64,000 nt of DNA. It comes from a virus. Its lineage: Duplodnaviria > Heunggongvirae > Uroviricota > Caudoviricetes. Under the pieces are notes generated by a model, which made no database searches, was not told the DNA's origin, and saw only the letters and a program-made list of their open reading frames with translations. Below, piece by piece: positions 5,958 through 57,282 of this stretch. The stretch lies in IMG/VR virus record IMGVR_UViG_2740892229_000011. One strand, given 5' to 3'. The position numbers and the translations under genes are program-made. The stretch's first letter is position 1. Each line of letters begins with the position of its first letter.

Positions 5958-6341
5958 ATGCTGAACGAGAAACGTTCTATACAAACTATTCGCGATTGCA
6001 CGAGTATTATCGAGACTCATGTGCTGAATCAGCACAAGCTTGAAGTACGTAAGCTCAATAATGACGCTATTGAACCGGAAGACTCACGCTTCATCGTTAC
6101 CTTCAAAGACGATGTTGAGCGCGCTGGTGCAAGCGTGAAGCCATTAGCTGAAGCAATTTACCTGAATGGTCGTGTTCGTTTTGTAGTCAAGCCAGCTAAA
6201 CAGTACCCTGAGCTGTCTCGTTTTATCGAGGCTTTTTCGGAGGTTATTGAACATTCTATTCGCCGCTTCTTACGCAATCATGGTAGCATTGTCAGCACGG
6301 TTAAGGCTGATGATTCTGCTACAAAATGGCTCCTACACTAG
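5958..6341 (+). CDS. Hypothetical protein
   Basis: 127-aa ORF; no recognisable motif. Confidence 0.4.
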   Translation: MLNEKRSIQTIRDCTSIIETHVLNQHKLEVRKLNNDAIEPEDSRFIVTFKDDVERAGASVKPLAEAIYLNGRVRFVVKPAKQYPELSRFIEAFSEVIEHSIRRFLRNHGSIVSTVKADDSATKWLLH

Positions 6342-7078
6342 ATAGCGCATATTCAAAAGATCTAAGCGAGTTTCCTCATAAAGGGGAGACTCGTGTTCTT
6401 CGTTTTGGCTTTCTTATCAATGAAGCCTCCCTCTATAAAATCTCAGAAATTGAAATCATTGAACCAGAAGATGACATTTGCCTGTATGTCTCTATGGAAC
6501 GTGTAGGTGCGCGCGACCAAGGCGACCTGAGCGAATTCATCTTAGATCGAGCGGATGAAGATGCCCCTGAAGAAGAGATTATCAAAGAGGTGCTCCAGTC
6601 CGGGCTTCTGGACGAAAACAAAAATACGATCGCTGGTAGGATAGCTCTGCGTGAATATAGTTTTGTTGAAGACGGTAATGAGATCGAATGTTACCAGGTA
6701 GCTGGTGTCGAAACTGTCAGAGAGCGTCGTCAGCGAGGATTGTGTCACCGTACCTATCTCTTTCTTCTTCATTGGTATGAGCATTTAGTCTGCGACGATA
6801 CACAAACCATTCCTGGTGCTAAGATCTGGGCAGGGCCTCTCATGCGAACCGGCGATGTGCGTATATACAATGCCAAAACAGAAACGTTCGAAGATGTGTT
6901 AGGTGAGTACGGGATGGGGAAAGAAACCGGATTTTTGCCGTGGAACAGAGGATTGTTGCTTGATGCAGAGTTAAGCTCTTGGCTCCCAAACAAAGTGCAA
7001 GTTAACGTTCAGAAATTTATCGTACTTATCATCTCCCGCAAAACAAGAACTCCAGTAGGTTTATACCTAAAAGATTAA
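6326..7078 (+). CDS. Hypothetical protein
   Basis: 250-aa ORF overlapping the previous stop; followed by an intrinsic terminator. Confidence 0.4.
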   Translation: MAPTLDSAYSKDLSEFPHKGETRVLRFGFLINEASLYKISEIEIIEPEDDICLYVSMERVGARDQGDLSEFILDRADEDAPEEEIIKEVLQSGLLDENKNTIAGRIALREYSFVEDGNEIECYQVAGVETVRERRQRGLCHRTYLFLLHWYEHLVCDDTQTIPGAKIWAGPLMRTGDVRIYNAKTETFEDVLGEYGMGKETGFLPWNRGLLLDAELSSWLPNKVQVNVQKFIVLIISRKTRTPVGLYLKD

Positions 7079-7254: not shown

Positions 7255-7923
7255 ATGACCAAGATCTTTGTGGTTGGCGGCACAAAGGGCGGGCCTGGCA
7301 AATCCACCGTTGCCCAGCAAATTGCCGTTTGCCTGAAAGTCAAAAAGAAGAAGAAGGTTTATATTACCGATATAGATATTCAGCGCACGACAACGAGCTG
7401 GTGTGAAGACCGTCGACAGAACGAAGACCTTGAGCTGATTCCTTTTGCATACGTTCAGGATGACATCATTAAGCACCTAAAATCGCTTCAGGGTAGAGCT
7501 GAGTTTGTAGTGGTAGATGCTGGTGGCTTCGACTCCGAAATTCAGCGACAAGCGATGCTGATGGCTGACGTTATCATTATCCCGCTGCGTCCTAAGCGTC
7601 GTGATTTGAAATCTTTACGTGACATCGATCCTATTATCGACAATGTTCGCAATGTAAACGATAAAGTGAAGGTCCGCGCGGTCATGAACCAGTGCCCGGC
7701 TTTGCCATCACAAGTGTCTCGCATTCTGGCGGCTAAAGAGATTGTTGAGACGTTTGGCATCGAGTCTGCGCCAGTCAATCTATATAACCGCAACGTCTAT
7801 GATGATGCGGAAGAGTCTGGTCGTTCTATCTTTGAAATGACCGGTAGCGAGCGCGACAAAAAGGCGGAAGCCGAGTTTGAAGAATTTGTAGATTATCTGT
7901 TGAGTCTGGAGGAAGAAGAATAA
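7255..7923 (+). CDS. parA: ParA-type partition ATPase (small, type Ib-like)
   Basis: Deviant Walker A 'GGTKGGPGKST' at the N-terminus; 222 aa; followed by a small partner gene. Confidence 0.85.
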   Translation: MTKIFVVGGTKGGPGKSTVAQQIAVCLKVKKKKKVYITDIDIQRTTTSWCEDRRQNEDLELIPFAYVQDDIIKHLKSLQGRAEFVVVDAGGFDSEIQRQAMLMADVIIIPLRPKRRDLKSLRDIDPIIDNVRNVNDKVKVRAVMNQCPALPSQVSRILAAKEIVETFGIESAPVNLYNRNVYDDAEESGRSIFEMTGSERDKKAEAEFEEFVDYLLSLEEEE

Positions 7924-8282
7924 TGTCCATGAAAATGGGTGACCTAGCAAAGCGCAAAGAGCCTGATGCACCGGCTAAGAACACAACTCCTTTGCGCCAA
8001 CCAGTCAGACCACAGGGACGCCCGACTCGTGGCAAAGAGAAAATTAAAAGCCGCACAATGTCACTGGAAGACGAATACTTCGAACTGCTGGAGATGATGA
8101 AGTTCATCCCTCGCTTCGAGAAGTTCACTCGTTCTGACGTGATTCGAGCAGCCATTTTCCATCTGGCAGAGAAGTCACCGCAGGAAATCGAGGACATCGT
8201 GAAGCTTAACGAGGCGATCACAGCTGCCGACGTTACGATGCGTACCGATGAAATTAAACGAGAGTTGATGAAGAAAGGTTGA
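7923..8282 (+). CDS. Small partition partner (ParB/ParG-like centromere-binding protein)
   Basis: 119 aa, start overlaps parA stop; basic, apparently disordered N-terminus; position is diagnostic rather than sequence. Confidence 0.5.
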   Translation: MSMKMGDLAKRKEPDAPAKNTTPLRQPVRPQGRPTRGKEKIKSRTMSLEDEYFELLEMMKFIPRFEKFTRSDVIRAAIFHLAEKSPQEIEDIVKLNEAITAADVTMRTDEIKRELMKKG

Positions 8283-8333
8283 TTATATTGGGCGTTTGTT
8301 ACGCCCAATATATGAATTAAAGGATTGATACTA

Positions 8334-10028
8334 ATGGAATCGATAGAATCATTTCTAAAAAATTTTCTAGTTTCAGATCATCGGGTTGCCGTCATAAAAG
8401 GAGATTGGGGCGTTGGTAAAACTCATTATTGGAATAGTTTTTATACTAAGCATTCTGAAGGATTAGATTTTAATGCATATTCGTATGTTTCTTTGTTTGG
8501 GGTTAACTCTATTGGTGATATTAAAAAAGCTCTTTATCATTGTGCCACACCAATTAATGAAAAGAAATATAAAGAACTAATTTTATCTGAAACGGATCGA
8601 ACTATGATTCGTTATAGAAATGGGTTTTTGGGATGGTTGAAATACAACTCCTTGTCAAAATTTTTAATACATTTCGGAAAGAACGATTTTTTTGGGTTCA
8701 AAACAGATAACCTGCTGTCATCTCTTGAGTATAAATTTGTTAATAATTATTTGGTTTGTATTGATGATGTTGAAAGAAAAGGTAATTCGCTAGAAGTTAA
8801 AGAAATTATGGGGGTAATTGATGAATTGGCAAGAAGAAAAGGCTGCAAAGTTGTTCTAATTTTAAATGAAGATAATTTACATGATGAAACTGCAAAAAAA
8901 CAGTTTTTAGAGTACAGAGAAAAAGTAATTGATGTCGAAATAAAATACGATCCTACGCCTGAGAAGAACTTACGTAAAGTTTTTTATGAAACTGATTCTG
9001 ATTTTCTTTTGTTAAAAGTCTTAGCAAATGACTTAGACATTAAAAATATCCGTATATTAAATAAAATAAAAACATCTCTGGTTAATCTTAGGAATGAGCT
9101 AAGCTTGGCAGAGGATAAGGTTAGAGAAAGTTTTATCAATAGATTGGTTCTGTTTTCAGTGGTTTACTATTCTGGTGTTCCAGGTGTTGATTATGCCTTG
9201 TTTAAAGAATCAATTAAAAACATACATGTATTTGATTACATGTTAGATGATAAAAAGGATGATTCTGTATATTCATTTATTAATAGTCTTGATATTATTT
9301 ATGAACGAGCGGAAATTGCTTTCGATGATGACATAGATTTTTATCTCAAGAATGGTTATCTTTCTACTGAAAGCAATATTCGAGGTATAATAGAAGAAAA
9401 AAATAAACAATATAAAGAACACAAGGCTTTATGTGAGGTTAACAATGTTTGGGATATTTTTAGTGACTCATTCAAGGACAATGAATCTGAGTTTATTTCT
9501 AAGATAAAATGTGTAATTAACGACAATCTTTCACACATACCTGTTGCTCACTTCATAGGCTTGATTGATATCTTAAATAGATTGGAGATTGATTGTGATA
9601 GTTATATAGAGGCATATGCAGATGCCTTTGTTAGCCAAGATGATGCTTATACTGCTTTTCGGAATTTGTATGTAGAGATATTTGGTAACGAAAAGTTAGG
9701 TCTGCTAATTCAAAAAAAATTGATGGATAAGAAGCCTGAAGAGACTAATTTAGAGAATGTTTTATACAAAATAATTGAAGGCAAATTTAATCATAGTGAC
9801 ATAGCATATCTTAACAGTTTCTCTGAAGATGATTATTTAAAGTGGATATTATCCCGCAATCAGGATGCTTTGGATTTAGTGAGAAAGGGGTTGCTCAGAT
9901 TCAAAAGTATGCAAGAACTAACAGAAGAACAGCAAAAAATCACGAATAAAGCAATAGGTGCATTAACGAAACTGGCCTCTAGATCAAGTCTTAACAAACT
10001 ACGTGTGAGCAGATTGCTTAATAATTAA
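8334..10028 (+). CDS. KAP-family P-loop NTPase
   Basis: Walker A 'GDWGVGKTHYWN' and Walker B-like 'LVCIDDVER'; about 565 aa; conspicuously AT-rich codon usage compared with neighbours; bounded by hairpins at 8287-8309 and 10038-10091. Confidence 0.6.
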   Translation: MESIESFLKNFLVSDHRVAVIKGDWGVGKTHYWNSFYTKHSEGLDFNAYSYVSLFGVNSIGDIKKALYHCATPINEKKYKELILSETDRTMIRYRNGFLGWLKYNSLSKFLIHFGKNDFFGFKTDNLLSSLEYKFVNNYLVCIDDVERKGNSLEVKEIMGVIDELARRKGCKVVLILNEDNLHDETAKKQFLEYREKVIDVEIKYDPTPEKNLRKVFYETDSDFLLLKVLANDLDIKNIRILNKIKTSLVNLRNELSLAEDKVRESFINRLVLFSVVYYSGVPGVDYALFKESIKNIHVFDYMLDDKKDDSVYSFINSLDIIYERAEIAFDDDIDFYLKNGYLSTESNIRGIIEEKNKQYKEHKALCEVNNVWDIFSDSFKDNESEFISKIKCVINDNLSHIPVAHFIGLIDILNRLEIDCDSYIEAYADAFVSQDDAYTAFRNLYVEIFGNEKLGLLIQKKLMDKKPEETNLENVLYKIIEGKFNHSDIAYLNSFSEDDYLKWILSRNQDALDLVRKGLLRFKSMQELTEEQQKITNKAIGALTKLASRSSLNKLRVSRLLNN

Positions 10029-10197
10029 GTATTCATGACCTGTTTCTGTATATAAATAATAAGTAACTTATTAAATATACGGAAGCAGGTCTTTCAAAAG
10101 ATACCCACCAGAACAACTCCCTTCCGTTTCCACTTCCAAAAACTGCCACCAATCGCTATCATCAGCTCATTGTGATAAGTAAGTAACCACCTACCAG

Positions 10198-10947
10198 GTG
10201 AGCCACATGAGCCAAATCTTTTTCGACACCATCGACAACGACCAGTACGACTTCATGACAGAGTGGAATACCGCTGTTATGGATAAGTGGGTTGCTGAAA
10301 ACATTGGTTTGTCGCGCTGCAAAGACGAGGCTGAACTCTTCGAGACGAAGTGGTTTGATTACCGCGACATGCATCCTCTCATGGCCACCTGCCTTTTTAC
10401 GGAGGCATACAAACGTCAGTACTCAAATATCATGCTGACGCACGGTCGCGAACACTTTGAAACAGCTCCGTTCACCACCGGGTTAAAACGCCTGCCTTAT
10501 CAGGAGTTGTCGACTGCCAATAAAACGTCTCTATGGAAAGCACGCCAGTTTGCTGACCGCTATTGCTGCTCATACGACTACTTTATCTCCACCGTTCTTT
10601 CCGCAGCTGCACGACGGCTGTGGGACAAGCTGCCGCGCCCACAGCATTTATGGCAGCCAGAACTGATTGAGATATTTGAAGAGAAATTAGCCAGACGCGC
10701 AACAACCCGTCTGGATGACTCTCTGGTTAGCTTTAAGCATATGGGAGACATGCAGTTCAACCCGATTCAGGAAAGCTATTTTGAATGGATTCTGGAGCGT
10801 TTGCGCACCATCCCTCGCAGTAAGCGCATACGCGCAATTTTCTCCGCTATCTGGCTAATGGAAATCGTTCCAGAGCGCCTTATTTCCGCCCACTTTCCAG
10901 AAGAACTGGAAGAAGCACGGCGGTTTATTGATCCCCTATCTAATTAA
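10198..10947 (+). CDS. Hypothetical protein
   Basis: 249-aa ORF preceded by the dispersed 'gataagtaagtaacc' motif; no recognisable domain. Confidence 0.45.
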   Translation: MSHMSQIFFDTIDNDQYDFMTEWNTAVMDKWVAENIGLSRCKDEAELFETKWFDYRDMHPLMATCLFTEAYKRQYSNIMLTHGREHFETAPFTTGLKRLPYQELSTANKTSLWKARQFADRYCCSYDYFISTVLSAAARRLWDKLPRPQHLWQPELIEIFEEKLARRATTRLDDSLVSFKHMGDMQFNPIQESYFEWILERLRTIPRSKRIRAIFSAIWLMEIVPERLISAHFPEELEEARRFIDPLSN

Positions 10948-10990: not shown

Positions 10991-12331
10991 ATGACCGAAC
11001 TTTGCCATACAGGACGCGGGCTGTCCGAAGAGTTTGATGAAGATTTCCAGAACAGACTGACGGCATATTTTTGTCGTGATCACGAGTTTCTTACTCGTGC
11101 GGGAGATCTGGTTGTGCCTAGCCAATTTGCCAATGCGGCCAATGCCATATTGGTTAATATGGTTTCGGGCTATTACCGTATGTACAAGAGCGCGCCTTCT
11201 TCATCTGCGATTCTGGATATGCTTAAGCGTGCGAAACGCGATAAGACCATCCGTGAGGAACTCTTCCCGGATGTTGTTGCTGCGTTTAAGCGCATCCTTG
11301 CAGAAAAATTGTCTGATACCTCGTACATGGTTGACCAGGTATCCACATTCGCAAAAAGTGTAGCGTTTGATGATGCTCTGATTAAAGCTGCTGAACTGAA
11401 AGAGAAGGGCGACTTTCAGGGGGCGATGGCAATCATGGCCAAGGTTCAGCAGATAGGCTCGAACGAAGCGACCGGAATCTATGACTACTACACCTCCGCA
11501 AGTGAGCGATTGAAAGCGCGTGAATATGAGGCTTCAGAGGAGTATGTGCCAAACAGCATTACAACTGGACTCCCTCTGCTTGATAGATTGCTGTACCAAA
11601 AAGGCTGGGCAAAGCGCGAAATGGTGCTCTTCATGGGTTTTGCTAAATCCGGTAAATCGACCGCAATGGGTGAGTTTTCCATAAACGCAACGCTTGCTGG
11701 CTACAATGTTCTGTATCTCTCGCTGGAGGTTCACACCACCATTTTATCCGACCGTTTTGATGCAAGATTGTCGGAGACAGAAATGTCCAAGCTGGTGGAA
11801 CGGCGCGATGAGGTTCATCGTAAGTTGGCAGAGTTGGGAGCCACGAAGGGGATTGGTAGTTTGTGGGTGGTTGAGCGTCCGTCAGGAAGTATGTCACCGG
11901 CAGATCTGGACCGTATGCTTAACAGCATGAAAGCCAACGGCATGGTGCCTGACATGGTTGTTGTCGACTACGCAGATTTGATGCGTGCCAGTTATGACCT
12001 TCGTGATGATCGCGCCAACATTCGTAGTATCTACACCGATTTACGTGCTCTTTATGACAAGCATAACGTTGCTGGAATAACGGCATCGCAGACAAACCGT
12101 GAAGGTGGCGCGTCAGAAGTTGCCACAATGATGCACGCCGCCGACAACATCGAAAAAGTACGTATTGCTGACCTGGTAATAACGATCAACAAAACCGAAG
12201 AAGAAGAAGCGAAAGGAGAGGCTCGTCTCTACTTTGCTGGTTCGCGTAACCAGCAGGGAGGGATCAGCATTCGCGTTAAACAAAACCTCGAACAAATGCG
12301 CTTCATTGAGCGAATCTTAGACGTTACCTAA
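10991..12331 (+). CDS. DnaB-like replicative helicase
   Basis: RecA-fold C-terminal domain with Walker A 'GFAKSGKST' and 'VVVDYADLM'; 446 aa. Confidence 0.75.
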   Translation: MTELCHTGRGLSEEFDEDFQNRLTAYFCRDHEFLTRAGDLVVPSQFANAANAILVNMVSGYYRMYKSAPSSSAILDMLKRAKRDKTIREELFPDVVAAFKRILAEKLSDTSYMVDQVSTFAKSVAFDDALIKAAELKEKGDFQGAMAIMAKVQQIGSNEATGIYDYYTSASERLKAREYEASEEYVPNSITTGLPLLDRLLYQKGWAKREMVLFMGFAKSGKSTAMGEFSINATLAGYNVLYLSLEVHTTILSDRFDARLSETEMSKLVERRDEVHRKLAELGATKGIGSLWVVERPSGSMSPADLDRMLNSMKANGMVPDMVVVDYADLMRASYDLRDDRANIRSIYTDLRALYDKHNVAGITASQTNREGGASEVATMMHAADNIEKVRIADLVITINKTEEEEAKGEARLYFAGSRNQQGGISIRVKQNLEQMRFIERILDVT

Positions 12332-12412: not shown

Positions 12413-13594
12413 ATGAGCCTTTATGTTATATCAACATTTAGGTTGGTAACAATATTGCCTGTTAAAAGTGGAATTATCGTGAGCGAGCTGAAAGAGTTAA
12501 TTACCGAATTAGATTTTGAACAATGGTTGGACACTGAAGGTATCGTTTATCGACGTGGAGGCGTGAGTACTCGCGGTCGTGAAGTGAATATCAAGGAGTG
12601 TCCGGTATGCGGCAGCTCCAACTGGAAGGTATATTTCAATCTGACCAGTGGCGTCGGTAAATGCTTCGCTGGTGATCATCCCGAAGAGATTCAGTTCAAT
12701 AAGCTGGTCTTCCTCAAGCACTACAGCGGCAAATCACGACGACAGTTCGAGGAATATGTGCAGAACGCCCTTCTTTCCCAGGGGTGGGCACCAAAGAAAG
12801 AAGAGCTAGTGCTTGCAAGCACAGTCGAGTTAGAGGGGCCAGTTGCACTCCCTCGTCATTACGAACTTCCTATAGATGGCCGTCTTCCAGACTATCTGGT
12901 TGAACGAAATATATCGCCTGAAATGGCAAAGTATTTTGACCTACGATACTGCGTCGAAGGTAAGCACGCCTATGTAGATCCGTATACAGATCAGGTTAAA
13001 GGACAGATATTCGATATGCGAATACTGATACCGGTTTACGATCTGGATGGGGTAATGAAGACATTTCAGGGACGAGACATTACCGGTACAGCAGAACGCC
13101 GCTACCTCTTTCCTATGCAGCTTCCAGCTTCAGGTAAGTTTCTCTACAACGGCTATAATGCAGTCGGCAAACAGACTGTAGTTGTCTGTGAGGGGGCGTT
13201 CGATGTTATGGGGGTTAAACGAGCTATTTTTGACGAAGAAACATTACGTGATTACGTGGAACCAATAGGAACGTTCGGGATGCATCTATCTGGTAACACC
13301 ACTCAGGATGCAGAAGATCAGTTAGGCGCGTTCCTGACGCTCAAGGCGCGTGGGTTACGTAATGTGATCATGATGTGGGATAGTGAAAAGCAAGCTATAC
13401 GAAACACTATGGCCGCAGCCAGGCGACTGACCAGTATCGGTCTTAATGTGAAAATTGCATGTTTGGGCGAGGAAGGACTCGACCCCGGCGATGCGACCCC
13501 GGGGCAGATTATCAAAGCCTACTATTGCGCAAAACCTTACTCACGACGGCTTGAACTTTTAAGCAAGGTAAAAGGCATAGCAGCATTAGTTTGA
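12413..13594 (+). CDS. DNA primase (zinc-ribbon + TOPRIM)
   Basis: 'CPVCGSSNWKV...GKCF' zinc ribbon and TOPRIM-like 'VVVCEGAFDVMG'; start placed at ATG 12413 after the conserved 'aaaagaaaaacacatg' initiation context. Confidence 0.7.
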   Translation: MSLYVISTFRLVTILPVKSGIIVSELKELITELDFEQWLDTEGIVYRRGGVSTRGREVNIKECPVCGSSNWKVYFNLTSGVGKCFAGDHPEEIQFNKLVFLKHYSGKSRRQFEEYVQNALLSQGWAPKKEELVLASTVELEGPVALPRHYELPIDGRLPDYLVERNISPEMAKYFDLRYCVEGKHAYVDPYTDQVKGQIFDMRILIPVYDLDGVMKTFQGRDITGTAERRYLFPMQLPASGKFLYNGYNAVGKQTVVVCEGAFDVMGVKRAIFDEETLRDYVEPIGTFGMHLSGNTTQDAEDQLGAFLTLKARGLRNVIMMWDSEKQAIRNTMAAARRLTSIGLNVKIACLGEEGLDPGDATPGQIIKAYYCAKPYSRRLELLSKVKGIAALV

Positions 13595-14276
13595 ACCAGT
13601 ATTAGTCACGTACACATTGACCGAAAATGATTTAACTTCTGTGTTGAAGTTGTCAGTCATTACCGCGAGGTAGGCATTCTTGGTATCTCTGAATTGCTTC
13701 AGTATGATTTGAACGTTATCGGTGCAAACAAACGAGGTAGCCAGATTGCCTCCTTTCTCTGAAAAATCCTTCAGGAAGGTGCAGTCAACTTTGCCATCAT
13801 TAGCGGTGAAGGTAGCATCATCACCCTGCCAGGTAAATGTAGCGTTAACGCCCTTATCAATGGATTTAGCAATAAGTCGCTGGGTGGCGGATTTTGTTTT
13901 GGCTTTGGAAGCCGGCGCTCGATATTTGCCGCTTTCTTTCAGTTCTGCAATGTAATCACAGCCATTTTTATCTTCTTTATCACAAGCAGCCTGATAAAGC
14001 TCAGCTGCTTTTTTATAGTCTTTTTTAACCCCTTCACCATACTCATACATAATGCCAAGATTTGTCATGGCATCGGCGTTTCCGAGTTCAGCAGCTTTTT
14101 TATACCACTTAATTGCTTCGGCATCGTTGCGTTTAACACCTAAACCGTCATCGTATAAGGTGCCTAATGCGAACATGCCATCTGAACTACCTTGATCCGC
14201 CGCTTTTTTGTAATAAGTAAAAGCTTTTTTATAACTCTTTTGTACACCTTTACCATATTGGTAATACGCACCAAGA
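13586..14276 (-). pseudogene. Sel1-repeat protein, C-terminal fragment split off by IS insertion
   Basis: Sel1-like repeats ('GLGVKRNDAEAIKWYKKAAELGNADAMTNLGIMYEYGEGV'); the frame continues upstream of the listed ATG to the IS junction at 14276 and is in phase with the N-terminal fragment at 16231-16690. Confidence 0.75.
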
Positions 14277-16690
<2,414 letters not shown>

Positions 16691-55754: not shown

Positions 55755-56312
55755 ATGACAACGATTGTTGCAGGCATCGATATCGAGTCTACGGGACTGG
55801 ATTTCCTTGCTGGTCATAAAATTATTGAAATCGCAATTACCCGCTATGAACTGGAGACACAGAGACATATTGATAGTCTGGAGATGCGTTTTAACCCTCG
55901 CAGAAACATAGATCCGAAAGCTCAAGCCGTTCATGGCATTTCATTAGAACAGCTCGCAGCTGAACCTTTGTTGTCAAATCATGCCAGCGAAATTGGCGCT
56001 TATATGGGGGCATGTAGTGCGTGGATTGCTCATAACGGCGAAGCGTTTGATATACCATTTATTCGACACGAGTTTTCAGGGTATGGAGTAAGACTGCCAG
56101 ACGTTCCCGTTATAGATACTATGTTATCGGGATTGTGGGCCACAGAAGACGGTAAACGTCCTCGCCTTGAAGAATTGGCCTTCTCTCTTGGCTTTATATA
56201 CGATCATGCCAAAGCACATAGTGCCTTATATGACACAAACTTAATGATGCAATGCTTCTTTAAGGCACGTAATAAATACGGATTTTTTAAATTACCCTCT
56301 GAAATTGTGTAA
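55755..56312 (+). CDS. DnaQ-like 3'-5' exonuclease (DEDDh)
   Basis: Exo I 'GIDIESTGL', Exo II 'HNGEAFDIPFI', Exo III 'HSALYDT'. Confidence 0.75.
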   Translation: MTTIVAGIDIESTGLDFLAGHKIIEIAITRYELETQRHIDSLEMRFNPRRNIDPKAQAVHGISLEQLAAEPLLSNHASEIGAYMGACSAWIAHNGEAFDIPFIRHEFSGYGVRLPDVPVIDTMLSGLWATEDGKRPRLEELAFSLGFIYDHAKAHSALYDTNLMMQCFFKARNKYGFFKLPSEIV

Positions 56313-56317
56313 AACAA

Positions 56318-56356
56318 AAGCCTGCTTTAAAGAGAGTTTGAAGCAGGCTTTCTTTT
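56318..56356 (+). terminator. Rho-independent terminator
   Basis: 'aagcctgctt...aagcaggctt' hairpin followed by 'tctttt'. Confidence 0.65.
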
Positions 56357-56472
56357 AAAGAACAGTCGCCTTTCAATCATTTCCTGCCTGTATTTAATAC
56401 TTTTCCGCCTGATAGGTTTAGTCAAAATGTAGCCATCGAAACGCAAATGCAACTAAACAGAAGGAGACTTAC

Positions 56473-57282
56473 ATGAGTTCGGTTGAAAATGTAATGACAA
56501 ATGATGATCTGGATGAGCTGACAGCCATGTTGCAATCACTTGATGAACCAGTAAAAAAAGCTGCACAGGTTGAAAATACTGATGATATTGACGATCTGCT
56601 TCTCGGCCTCGATGCTGGCGTAGCCATGAGTTCTGATGATGTTGCCGAAGAACTGTTCAATGAAGAAAAAGCAGGTGATTTCAGCTCCGCTTTAAATGAG
56701 TTGGAGTTAGCTCATGAGCCTATAAACGTAATTAAGGCTGAAAGTGTTGAATCTGCCGAAAACGAGCCAGAACAATTGGGATTTATTGAGGTTGAAGAGT
56801 GTGTTGAGGTTAATGATGAATTAAAAGTTCAACAGTCAAATGATAGCAATACAAATAAAATAGCTCGTACTGCAAGAGGTCCTCGTTTTACTTTAAGTGA
56901 TAAAGATGATTTGTTTTTCAATAAAGCAGGCTTAGAAAAAGATATTTTCTTAGACGCTTACGAAAACGCGCCTGTCAAAGCAAAGGATAAGATATTAAAC
57001 CTTCTTAATTGGTTTAGCGGAGGTCCAGATATTAGTGTTTACACGGTAATTTCCATGAGACACCTTCTCACAGAAAAGAAGGCTACAAGTAATAGTATTA
57101 AGATTGCTTTAATGAGCAATCCAGAAAAACCGTATCCGCTTAACACTGCGTCAACTCAGGCTGGGCAAATGATGGCTGTATTTCCAGCTACAGGAATTGC
57201 TGTTAGAGACGGTGGAAATCTAACATTGAACGAAGAATCACCGATCGTTAAGAAGTTTGTCGCGGAGTACACTATTGGATGA
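56473..57282 (+). CDS. Hypothetical acidic protein
   Basis: 269-aa ORF with a strongly acidic N-terminal half. Confidence 0.4.
   Translation: MSSVENVMTNDDLDELTAMLQSLDEPVKKAAQVENTDDIDDLLLGLDAGVAMSSDDVAEELFNEEKAGDFSSALNELELAHEPINVIKAESVESAENEPEQLGFIEVEECVEVNDELKVQQSNDSNTNKIARTARGPRFTLSDKDDLFFNKAGLEKDIFLDAYENAPVKAKDKILNLLNWFSGGPDISVYTVISMRHLLTEKKATSNSIKIALMSNPEKPYPLNTASTQAGQMMAVFPATGIAVRDGGNLTLNEESPIVKKFVAEYTIG

What the first reader, a model, noticed from the sequence alone, without database searches (positions are those of the whole stretch)
8283..10100. AT-rich single-gene island encoding a KAP-family P-loop NTPase, wedged between the partition genes and the replication genes
The gene at 8334-10028 carries the KAP-type Walker A 'GDWGVGKT' and Walker B 'DDVER' and is visibly far more AT-rich than its neighbours (long A/T runs, Lys/Asn/Ile/Phe-rich protein). 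That compositional contrast suggests separate acquisition. It is insulated by a hairpin upstream (8287-8309) and a long terminator-like hairpin downstream (10038-10091). KAP NTPases are poorly characterised and recur in defence-island-like contexts, so a phage-plasmid carrying one as cargo is a candidate anti-phage or exclusion function.
Basis: partly seen in the sequence, partly recalled or inferred. Interest (0 to 1): 0.7.

Follow-up and report, generated by a model that had tools for sequence, protein, structure and literature searches.

The report
Candidate anti-phage NTPase in phage-plasmid hotspot
A single AT-rich gene for a soluble KAP-type ATPase sits in a swap-in/swap-out slot of an SSU5-like E. 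coli phage-plasmid where sister elements carry proven anti-phage genes, so it is a good but untested and not very surprising candidate defence gene.

Summary
A 564-aa ORF (8334-10028, +) has GC 0.31 against 0.46 for the rest of the window (z = -7.3). It carries GDWGVGKT and DDVER, passes Pfam's KAP_NTPase threshold, and is flanked by two real hairpins.

The window is an SSU5-like E. coli phage-plasmid, 100% identical to NZ_CP027358.1 over the 7 kb compared. The gene fills a variable slot between the ParA partner gene and the replication module. Only 28 of 264 complete E. coli genomes with this backbone carry it. Sister elements hold PD-T4-3, PD-T7-5, DUF2971/PDC-S31 or unknown genes there, and one slot is empty.

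One correction: the long downstream hairpin (10037-10091) belongs to the conserved backbone, not the island. The upstream hairpin is cassette-specific.

The protein has an AAA+/ORC-like KAP domain and an alpha-solenoid C-terminus. It has no transmembrane helix, no recognisable effector fold and no conserved partner gene. It is related to PADLOC's untested candidate PDC-S49, under purifying selection (dN/dS 0.23), and most divergent at the C-terminus.

Best reading: a stand-alone, ATP-gated anti-phage sensor expressed from the plasmid state. Function is inferred, not shown. It is a new member of a known kind; interest is moderate.

The parts
7255..7923 (+). parA (ParA/MipZ-type partition ATPase); conserved backbone to the left of the slot
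   Evidence: ORF. Annotated as AAA family ATPase / ParA. Pfam CbiA/ParA/MipZ hits on orthologues.
7923..8282 (+). Small ParA-partner gene (119 aa), ParB-like by position only. Its stop codon is the left boundary of the variable slot.
   Evidence: No Pfam hit; phrog_5111, unknown function. In every relative the sequence diverges immediately after this stop codon.
8284..8312 (+). Cassette-specific GC-cored hairpin (12-bp perfect stem, 5-nt loop) with no U-tract. It travels with the KAP cassette.
   Evidence: The identical hairpin accompanies the 84%-nt KAP allele (L010). Every other cargo has a different hairpin at the same position.
8320..8324 (+). Shine-Dalgarno-like AAGGA, 9 nt before the ATG
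   Evidence: Read directly from the sequence.
8334..10028 (+). KAP-family P-loop NTPase gene (564 aa plus stop); the cargo
8334..9095 (+). N-terminal KAP/AAA+-like NTPase module (residues 1-254). It includes Walker A at 8400-8423 and Walker B at 8763-8777. A non-hydrophobic helical insert of low model confidence covers residues 98-126.
9096..10025 (+). C-terminal all-alpha, solenoid-like domain (residues 255-564). It is the most divergent part between alleles and is the putative sensor or specificity region.
10037..10091 (+). Long hairpin of the conserved backbone, followed by a T-run. It is the right boundary of the slot and is terminator-like, lying ahead of the replication module. It is not part of the island.
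   Evidence: Present next to every cargo, in the empty slot, and in SSU5, Klebsiella and Salmonella relatives. 15 conserved pairs; of the variant pairs, all but one remain G-U/A-U-compatible on the + strand.
10198..10947 (+). First gene of the replication module (249 aa, unknown function); conserved backbone to the right of the slot
   Evidence: phrog_2500. It is followed by a DnaB-like helicase (10991-12331) and a primase.

Best explanation
**What it is.** The gene is exchangeable cargo in a defence hotspot of an SSU5-type phage-plasmid. The slot runs from the stop codon of the ParA-partner gene to a conserved backbone hairpin ahead of the replication genes. Cassettes are swapped there by homologous recombination between the conserved flanks. 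That is inferred from three observations:
- there is no integrase, transposase or terminal repeat;
- the breakpoints fall at the same two places in all relatives;
- the flanks are 96-100% identical around unrelated cargo.

**Expression (inferred).** The KAP gene lies 51 nt downstream of the partition operon, on the same strand. The gap contains no promoter-like site, and the intervening hairpin has no U-tract. It is therefore probably transcribed by read-through from parAB, at a low level, while the element lives as a plasmid.

**Mechanism (inferred).** The protein is a soluble, stand-alone ATP-gated switch.
- Its variable C-terminal alpha-solenoid recognises a component of an incoming phage or other mobile element.
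- Recognition licenses nucleotide-dependent oligomerisation and hydrolysis by the AAA+/ORC-like KAP domain. The conserved motifs are Walker A K29, Walker B D144/D145, and the conserved N178, R195 and R240.
- There is no membrane anchor, nuclease, protease or other effector fold. The assembled NTPase itself is therefore the likely effector, binding or remodelling a phage replication or assembly factor or phage DNA rather than killing the cell through a toxin.

**Shown versus inferred.**
- Shown: family membership, variability of the slot, defence genes in the same slot, domain architecture, purifying selection.
- Inferred: expression, trigger, output and the phenotype itself.
For: **KAP profile and motifs.** Pfam match above threshold with invariant NTPase motifs.

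**Related defence candidate.** All 44 sampled family members hit PADLOC PDC-S49. PDC families were defined by being embedded in BREX, DISARM or type I RM loci (bioRxiv 10.1101/2024.01.29.577857).

**The same slot holds defence genes in sister elements.**
- PD-T4-3, PD-T7-5 and PDC-S31 homologues occupy it.
- An independent survey found PD-T4-3 and PD-T7-5 in E. coli/Shigella SSU5 phage-plasmids.
- PD-T4-3 is active in its native host.

**Dispensable for the replicon.**
- The gene is present in 28 of 264 backbone-carrying genomes.
- An otherwise intact 108.6-kb element has an empty slot.

**Recurrent in this slot.** 40-44%-identical homologues fill the same slot in Klebsiella and Salmonella phage-plasmids.

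**Stand-alone.** There is no conserved neighbour across an ICE, solitary chromosomal sites and an IS-flanked site. The gene also assorts independently of the upstream variable module.

**Functional and evolving like a specificity module.**
- dN/dS is 0.23 overall.
- Divergence is concentrated in the C-terminal domain.
- dS rises along the gene, indicating a mosaic history.

**Structure.** AAA+/ORC/STAND-like N-domain including similarity to RADAR RdrA, and an alpha-solenoid C-domain.

**Precedent.**
- EF_KAP and three metagenomic KAP proteins protect against phage. EF_KAP needs both Walker B and its unknown C-terminal region, and is not abortive (PMC13552941).
- The single-gene KAP-domain system 'Reve' from a P4 hotspot protects against siphoviruses (bioRxiv 10.64898/2026.02.27.708500).
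- PifA of F excludes T7.

**No mobility signature.** No transposon-like flanking repeats.
Against: - No experiment on this family was found. Its RefSeq accessions appear in no searchable paper.
- PDC-S49 is itself explicitly untested. The match covers mainly the NTPase half (residues 3-223 of 564) at modest scores.
- DefenseFinder-based surveys did not flag it.
- Guilt by association in a hotspot is probabilistic: two other occupants of the slot and SSU5's own genes have no defence annotation.
- The protein lacks the transmembrane helices that feature in most descriptions of KAP and Tmn action, and it lacks any effector fold, so the proposed output is speculative.
- Read-through expression is inferred from sequence only. 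AT-rich genes in enterobacteria are often silenced.
- The proposed role of the conserved Asn/Arg residues as sensor and arginine-finger residues was not checked in 3D coordinates.
Confidence: 0.55

Rival explanations
1. Inter-element competition rather than defence against lytic phage. The NTPase would exclude or destabilise competing plasmids, phage-plasmids or satellites, for example related SSU5-type elements entering the same cell, and so protect the resident element's niche.
For: - The gene lives almost only on mobile elements: phage-plasmids, an ICE and temperate phages.
- It sits beside the partition and replication functions that define incompatibility.
- Its N-domain resembles DNA-bound AAA+ switches (ORC/Cdc6, TnsC, MuB).
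Against: - The validated neighbours in the same slot (PD-T4-3, PD-T7-5) are anti-phage systems.
- Tested KAP proteins act on lytic phages.
- Solitary chromosomal copies among housekeeping genes fit host defence as well as this idea does.
- No evidence discriminates between the two; they are not mutually exclusive.
Confidence: 0.15
2. Selfish or neutral passenger. The gene would be an addiction-type or simply hitch-hiking AT-rich gene with no benefit to host or element, possibly silenced by H-NS, and kept because the slot tolerates any insert.
For: - Very low GC in every host.
- No known effector fold.
- The slot also holds genes of unknown function and can be empty.
- The function is unproven.
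Against: - Purifying selection is clear (dN/dS 0.23), with invariant catalytic motifs across 44 distant homologues.
- Length and architecture are conserved across a family with 547 50%-identity clusters at E <= 1e-30 (the 150 best listed are nearly all full-length).
- The same family recurs in the same slot across genera.
- One 99% allele occurs on at least 928 contigs.
Confidence: 0.12
3. Counter-defence or infection-helper protein used by the phage-plasmid itself, for example to neutralise a host immune system or remodel host complexes during its own lytic or establishment phase.
For: - Hotspots of mobile elements mix defence and anti-defence genes.
- SSU5-type elements carry anti-defence genes such as Rad.
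- The protein could be expressed early from the plasmid-maintenance region.
Against: - Homologues occur as solitary chromosomal genes away from any phage.
- A large 564-aa NTPase-plus-sensor architecture is typical of immune sensors, not of small inhibitor proteins.
- The related family PDC-S49 was defined inside host defence loci.
Confidence: 0.06
4. Replication or partition accessory factor. Given its ORC/Cdc6-like fold and its position between par and rep genes, the protein would act as an initiator, helicase loader or segregation ATPase of the phage-plasmid.
For: - The gene lies directly upstream of the replication module.
Against: - The gene is absent from about 89% of E. coli plasmids with the same par and rep genes, and from SSU5 itself.
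- One 108.6-kb circular element with an empty slot has its par and rep genes annotated intact.
- It is replaced by nucleases and unrelated genes, some on the opposite strand.
- No winged-helix or other DNA-binding domain was detected; the C-domain is an alpha-solenoid.
- Homologues sit in chromosomes without replicon genes.
- ORC-like fold hits are also reported for the KAP-domain defence protein Reve.
Confidence: 0.03

Closest known systems
PADLOC phage-defence candidate PDC-S49 (single-gene, untested; Payne et al. preprint 10.1101/2024.01.29.577857)
   Same: It is the best profile match for this protein (E 2.3e-22) and for all 44 sampled family members. Its models are about 620 positions long (619-629). 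It is a single-gene candidate.
   Different: The match is confined mainly to the NTPase half (residues 3-223), at scores far below those expected of a true cluster member, so this is a sister family. PDC-S49 was defined by embedding in BREX, DISARM or RM loci, whereas this copy sits in a phage-plasmid slot. Neither has been tested.
EF_KAP and three metagenomic KAP P-loop NTPase defence proteins (PMC13552941)
   Same: Both are single proteins made of a KAP NTPase plus a C-terminal region of about 300 aa with no known domain. EF_KAP needs both Walker B and that C-terminal region, and its defence is not abortive. This is the closest functional precedent.
   Different: EF_KAP has two transmembrane helices, one of them inside the NTPase domain. 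The protein here has none. Hosts are Firmicutes.
PifA of plasmid F (T7 exclusion)
   Same: Both are KAP-family proteins annotated 'P-loop NTPase fold protein' and encoded on an enterobacterial plasmid, with PifA a few kb from F's ccd, repE and sopAB genes. The GxWGxGKT and DDxxR motifs and the post-Walker-B segment align.
   Different: PifA is 741 aa against 564. Similarity is only at motif level (BLASTP E 0.079; hhalign probability 31%). PifA has the regulator PifC next to it, whereas this gene has no partner. PifA causes membrane leakage and abortive infection, which cannot be assumed here.
Reve (single-gene KAP-domain system from a P4 satellite hotspot; bioRxiv 10.64898/2026.02.27.708500)
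   Same: Single gene; HHpred hits to KAP PF07693; Foldseek best hits to the ORC ATPase module, as found here; cargo of a mobile-element defence hotspot; protective against siphoviruses.
   Different: It is a P4 satellite hotspot, not a phage-plasmid. No sequence was available, so homology is untested. The DNA of this gene is found only on plasmids among 5,426 E. coli genomes.
[quoted passage not shown]
   Same: Both are single-gene, plasmid-borne NTPases with a solenoid-like sensing arm, and defence depends on the ATPase.
   Different: Tmn has two transmembrane helices inside the P-loop domain, forms a membrane decamer and exports Mg2+ (abstract). No Tmn model in PADLOC hits this protein, and this protein has no transmembrane segment.
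STAND/AVAST-type immune NTPases and RADAR RdrA
   Different: There is no effector domain. The nSTAND3 match is below threshold (16.4 against 27.2 bits). There is no partner deaminase as in RADAR.
Defence hotspots of P2 phages and P4 satellites
   Same: Both have a fixed slot bounded by conserved genes, with unrelated single- or two-gene systems exchanged between near-identical elements.
   Different: This slot lies between the partition and replication modules of a phage-plasmid. I found no description of this particular slot in the papers I could search.

Membership tests
KAP family P-loop NTPases (Pfam PF07693) | Profile match at or above the curated gathering score | tested here: met
   24.5 bits against a cutoff of 20, E 1.9e-5, residues 12-254 matching profile positions 12-278 of 293. 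PF07693 is precomputed on nearly all homologues.
KAP family P-loop NTPases (Pfam PF07693) | Walker A GxxGxGK[ST] and Walker B hhhhDDxxR | tested here: met
   GDWGVGKT (23-30) and CIDDVER (142-148). G23, W25, G26, G28, K29, T30, D144, D145, E147 and R148 are invariant in 44 sequences.
KAP family P-loop NTPases (Pfam PF07693) | Two or four transmembrane helices associated with or inserted in the NTPase domain (as the family is described in the papers read) | tested here: not met
   The maximum 19-residue Kyte-Doolittle hydropathy is 1.35 here and at most 1.6 in all 44 homologues. The insert between Walker A and B (residues ~76-133) is helical but not hydrophobic. PifA is also reported to lack TMHs, so this does not exclude membership.
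KAP family P-loop NTPases (Pfam PF07693) | Alpha-helical (superhelical) region C-terminal to the NTPase | tested here: met
   Residues 255-564 are all-alpha with pLDDT 87.8. Only helical-repeat or solenoid structural neighbours were found.
PADLOC PDC-S49 | Full-length match to a PDC-S49 HMM | tested here: inconclusive
   The best model aligns only residues 3-223 to profile positions 8-214 of 624 (E 2.3e-22). A weaker model aligns residues 4-388 (E 1e-5). All 44 relatives hit, with best E 2e-29. This indicates a related, probably sister, family.
PADLOC PDC-S49 | Found embedded in BREX, DISARM or type I RM loci | tested here: not met
   None of the seven contexts examined is such a locus. This feature defined how PDC-S49 was discovered, not its function.
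Tmn / YobI family | Tmn profile match and two TM helices inside the P-loop domain | tested here: not met
   The only PADLOC hits at E <= 1 were to PDC-S49 models. No TM segment is present.
PifA (F plasmid) orthologue | Full-length sequence similarity to PifA, and a linked pifC | tested here: not met
   BLASTP E 0.079 over 17 residues. hhalign probability is 31% over 72 columns around Walker B. There is no pifC-like neighbour.
PifA (F plasmid) orthologue | Exclusion of T7 triggered by gp1.2/gp10 | not testable with these tools
   Needs plaque assays.
STAND NTPases (AVAST-like) | STAND profile above threshold and an effector-NTPase-sensor tripartite architecture | tested here: not met
   nSTAND3 scores 16.4 bits against a cutoff of 27.2. 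There is no N-terminal or C-terminal effector fold.
Orc1/Cdc6-type replication initiators | AAA+ fold plus a winged-helix DNA-binding domain, and conservation with the replicon | tested here: not met
Mobile-element defence hotspot | Fixed slot between conserved genes with unrelated alternative cargo in near-identical elements | tested here: met
   Flanks are 96-100% identical and breakpoints fall at the parB-like stop codon and the backbone hairpin. Seven other cargo-bearing states and an empty site were found.
Mobile-element defence hotspot | Known defence systems among the alternative cargo | tested here: met
   PD-T4-3 (E 1.3e-23), PD-T7-5 (E 1.8e-139) and PDC-S31 (E 1e-40). PD-T4-3 activity is reported, and the same systems were reported in SSU5 phage-plasmids.
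Anti-phage defence protein (functional class) | Reduces phage plating or propagation when expressed | not testable with these tools
   No published test of this protein or its accessions was found.

The most novel reading that the evidence does not exclude
This would be the first representative of a large, transmembrane-less and effector-less KAP/AAA+ family acting as a self-contained antiviral sensor-effector. The family has 547 clusters at 50% identity with E <= 1e-30; the 150 best listed are nearly all full-length matches of about 530-610 aa.

In this reading, ATP-driven assembly on a phage factor or phage DNA is itself the block to infection. The family would mark a previously undescribed par-rep defence hotspot of SSU5-type phage-plasmids. 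It might also supply a hidden immunity gene to the widespread Shigella sonnei/E. coli elements in which standard tools report no defence system.
Probability: 0.3. Interest if true: 0.6.

Novelty: new member of a known kind. Interest (0 to 1): 0.42.

Why it matters
SSU5-type phage-plasmids are common in clinical E. coli, Shigella, Salmonella and Klebsiella. A 99%-identical allele of this gene occurs on at least 928 assembled contigs.

If the gene blocks phages, three things would follow.
- It would add a soluble, partner-less KAP family to the immune repertoire.
- It would show that the par-rep junction of these elements is a defence hotspot where new systems can be mined; two unknown occupants are already visible.
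- It could affect phage-therapy susceptibility of strains carrying the element.

It is not a conceptual surprise. KAP-domain single-gene defences and mobile-element hotspots are both established, and PADLOC already lists a related candidate.

Tried and rejected
**Searches that found nothing**
- NCBIfam: no hit.
- PDB sequence search with the family profile: nothing meaningful.
- Viral structure library (BFVD): only generic AAA ATPases.
- Literature searches for 'PDC-S49' and for the RefSeq accessions: zero papers.
- Vassallo et al. main text does not contain the strings PD-T4-3 or PD-T7-5, so their validation is cited from other papers and my own knowledge.

**Tools or data not available**
- The afdb50 fold library was not available.
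- The Reve sequence could not be obtained from the supplement, so its relation to this family is open.
- F plasmid under accession AP001918.1 was not in the collection; NC_002483.1 worked.

**Ideas considered and rejected**
- The island as a transposon or integrase cassette. There are no flanking repeats or recombinase.
- The downstream hairpin as the island's own terminator. It is backbone.
- A replication-initiator role. The gene's distribution rules it out.
- Positive selection as the explanation of C-terminal divergence. dN/dS is below 1 everywhere and dS also rises along the gene, so mosaic recombination with relaxed or diversifying pressure fits better.
- Low GC as proof of recent foreign origin. 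It is a family-wide trait.
Full report
**1. Observation**

The ORF at 8334-10028 (+) encodes 564 aa from an ATG preceded by AAGGA; RefSeq annotates the same CDS. It contains GDWGVGKT (residues 23-30) and DDVER (144-148).

Its GC is 0.306 and its GC3 is 0.253. All other 1695-nt windows of the 64 kb have mean 0.460, sd 0.021 and minimum 0.402, so z = -7.3. It is the lowest-GC block of the window.

Both hairpins are real. The one at 8284-8312 has a 12-bp perfect stem (dG -17.9, z -4.7). The one at 10037-10091 has dG -28.7 and z -7.5. In each case 0 of 200 shuffles fold as well. The consensus terminator scan called neither.

**2. The element**

The 7 kb around the gene is 100% identical to E. coli 2013C-4991 plasmid unnamed3 (NZ_CP027358.1, 110 kb). 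It is 98% identical over the shared backbone parts to Escherichia phages Cyrano, PhiR41_1 and CMS-2020a, and about 82% to Salmonella phage SSU5. The window is therefore an SSU5-type phage-plasmid.

To the left of the gene lie an endolysin and spanin genes, two unknown genes, parA and a 119-aa partner gene. To the right lie a 249-aa unknown protein, a DnaB-like helicase and a primase.

**3. The gene is variable cargo in a fixed slot**
- In PLSDB, 738 records match the backbone region and only 23 carry the gene.
- Among 5,426 complete E. coli genomes, 264 carry the backbone, always on plasmids, and 28 carry the gene.

Between the same two flanks, sister elements carry the following:

| Slot content | Strand | Example |
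|---|---|---|
| 255-aa GIY-YIG protein | - | L006 |
| DUF2971 protein | + | Cyrano, L007 |
| DUF2971 protein plus a 390-aa protein | + | L008 |
| 352-aa unknown protein | - | L004 |
| 225-aa unknown protein | - | L009 |
| Three genes | + | SSU5 |
| Second KAP allele, 84% nt / 76% aa identical | + | L010 |
| Nothing (202 nt between the two flanking genes) | n/a | pCMZE123_2 |

Alignment of the junctions shows the left breakpoint exactly at the stop codon of the ParA-partner gene. The right breakpoint lies just 5' of a long hairpin. No integrase, transposase or terminal repeats are present. Flanks are 96-100% identical while the cargo is unrelated or 70-90% identical. Exchange by homologous recombination in the flanks is the simplest mechanism; this is an inference.

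**4. The hairpins, re-assigned**

*Downstream hairpin.* It is backbone. It is present in the empty-slot element, next to every cargo, and in SSU5, Salmonella and Klebsiella relatives. Fifteen pairs are conserved. Of the variant pairs, all but one keep pairing on the + strand RNA (C/U opposite G, A/G opposite U), and one position shows UA, CG and UG; the exception is a C-A at that position in L010. It is followed by TCTTTT in most relatives and TCTTTC here. It is best read as a terminator-like insulator ahead of the replication module.

*Upstream hairpin.* It belongs to the cassette. The diverged KAP allele has the identical hairpin. Every other cargo except SSU5's own brings a different GC-cored hairpin 1-11 nt after the same stop codon. 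Several of these are followed by T-runs. The KAP one is not, and the 51-nt gap contains no promoter-like site. I therefore infer read-through transcription from parAB.

**5. The protein**

*Profile matches.*
- Pfam KAP_NTPase passes its threshold (24.5 against 20 bits).
- PADLOC gives only PDC-S49, mainly over residues 3-223, and all 44 sampled homologues hit it.
- PHROGs gives a full-length match to phrog_4740, unknown function.

*Family size.* The family is large and uniform. It has 547 clusters at 50% identity with E <= 1e-30, and the 150 best listed are nearly all full-length proteins of 530-610 aa.

*Invariant positions.* These include the Walker motifs, Y194-R195-E196-K197, N238/R240/K244, G341, W504 and N554/R557.

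*Transmembrane segments.* No member has a hydrophobic segment compatible with a transmembrane helix.

*Structure.*
- The AF2 model has pLDDT 84, with a low-confidence helical insert at residues 98-126.
- No nuclease, protease, pore or other effector fold is detectable.

**6. Evolution**
- Homologues only 40-44% identical occupy the same slot in Klebsiella and Salmonella SSU5-type elements.
- More distant ones (30-36%) sit inside the transfer genes of a Salmonella salamae ICE, alone among housekeeping genes in Pragia and Vreelandella, and next to IS66 and a T5orf172 gene in Oleispira.
- Remote KAP relatives occur in SPbeta-like, Burkholderia and Campylobacter temperate phages.
- No neighbour is shared, so the gene works alone.
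- In every host examined the gene is 5-24 GC points below its flanks. AT-richness is therefore a family trait.
- Between the two E. coli alleles dN/dS is 0.23. It rises from 0.11 (residues 1-130) to 0.31 (401-564), dS rises from 0.31 to 0.89, and protein identity falls from 94% to 57%. The gene is constrained and mosaic, with its C-terminal third diverging fastest.

**7. Function**

The decisive indirect evidence is the company the gene keeps.
- The GIY-YIG occupant matches PD-T4-3 (E 1e-23).
- The 390-aa occupant matches PD-T7-5 (E 2e-139).
- The DUF2971 occupants match candidate PDC-S31.
- A survey of clinical isolates independently reports PD-T4-3 and PD-T7-5 in E. coli/Shigella SSU5 elements.
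- PD-T4-3 restricts T-even phages in a native host.

There is also direct precedent for KAP-type defence.
- KAP P-loop proteins fused to unknown C-terminal regions are potent defences. EF_KAP needs both Walker B and its C-terminal region, and it does not act abortively (PMC13552941).
- The single-gene KAP-domain system Reve from a P4 hotspot protects against siphoviruses and shows the same ORC-like fold hits.
- PifA of F is the classical case, but it is only motif-level similar to this protein.
- PDC families were defined by embedding in BREX, DISARM or RM loci and are explicitly untested.

I therefore read the gene as a stand-alone ATP-gated anti-phage (or anti-MGE) sensor. It would protect the lysogen and thereby the resident phage-plasmid. 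The solenoid would act as sensor and the assembled NTPase as effector.

Every step from expression to output is inference.

**8. Rivals**

A replication or partition role is excluded by distribution. Inter-element competition, a neutral or selfish passenger, and counter-defence remain possible at lower probability (see Rival explanations).

**9. Novelty and score**

This is a new, untested member of a kind that is already known: single-gene KAP-type defence candidates in mobile-element hotspots. A related PADLOC candidate already exists.

I did not find the par-rep hotspot itself described in the papers I could search. The soluble, effector-less architecture leaves an open mechanistic question. 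The allele is also very common (at least 928 contigs). Together these justify moderate interest (0.42) rather than the 0.7 first proposed.

Noticed in passing
window 5958-7078 (compare L002 491-1325, L021 805-1603): There is a second variable slot, between the spanin genes and parA. This window has two + strand unknown genes (127 aa phrog_2594; 250 aa phrog_3307). Cyrano and the S. sonnei-type elements instead carry a TacT/KacT acetyltransferase toxin with a TacA antitoxin on the - strand. It assorts independently of the KAP slot.
   Followed up: partly
window 10037-10097: The backbone hairpin ahead of the replication module is conserved across E. coli, Salmonella and Klebsiella SSU5-type elements. 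Its changes are, with one exception, wobble-compatible on the + strand only. It may be a transcriptional insulator, or possibly a replication or regulatory element of the phage-plasmid.
   Followed up: partly
L004 3844-4902 (-) and L009 1567-2244 (-): Two other occupants of the same slot have no Pfam or PADLOC match: a 352-aa protein (phrog_22329) and a 225-aa protein (phrog_1353). By position they are further untested defence candidates.
   Followed up: partly
L021-L023; proteins P0013, P0026, P0028: A 99%-identical KAP allele is on at least 928 contigs. Many are labelled Shigella sonnei and are about 109 kb. A 2025 survey reports no DefenseFinder system in the S. sonnei pWPMR2-like clade of SSU5 elements. 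I did not verify whether that clade is the one carrying this gene.
   Followed up: partly
L011, L013, L015, L016, L017, L019 (KAP homologues): The family is AT-rich relative to its surroundings in every host checked, for example 0.311 against 0.547 in a Salmonella salamae ICE and 0.268 against 0.452 in Pragia. This points to persistent horizontal movement or selection for low GC rather than one recent import.
   Followed up: partly
window 13586-14731 (-): A Sel1/TPR-repeat protein gene lies after the primase. In this window the frame is open for only 196 aa (13586-14176) and is broken upstream, whereas RefSeq annotates a 381-aa protein at the corresponding place in NZ_CP027358.1. This may be a frameshift, or the window may differ from that record there.
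   Followed up: no
window 7923-8282: The 119-aa gene after parA has no Pfam match. It is annotated 'RelE/ParE putative toxin' in phage Cyrano but sits where a centromere-binding ParB/ParG-type partner is expected, so its identity is unverified.
   Followed up: no
window 56001-57000: This is the second-lowest GC block of the window (0.391) and may be another cargo region.
   Followed up: no
L020 4446-7761 (plasmid F): In F, pifA (RefSeq 'P-loop NTPase fold protein') and pifC lie a few kb from ccdAB, repE and sopAB. That is another KAP gene placed near a plasmid's replication and partition region.
   Followed up: no
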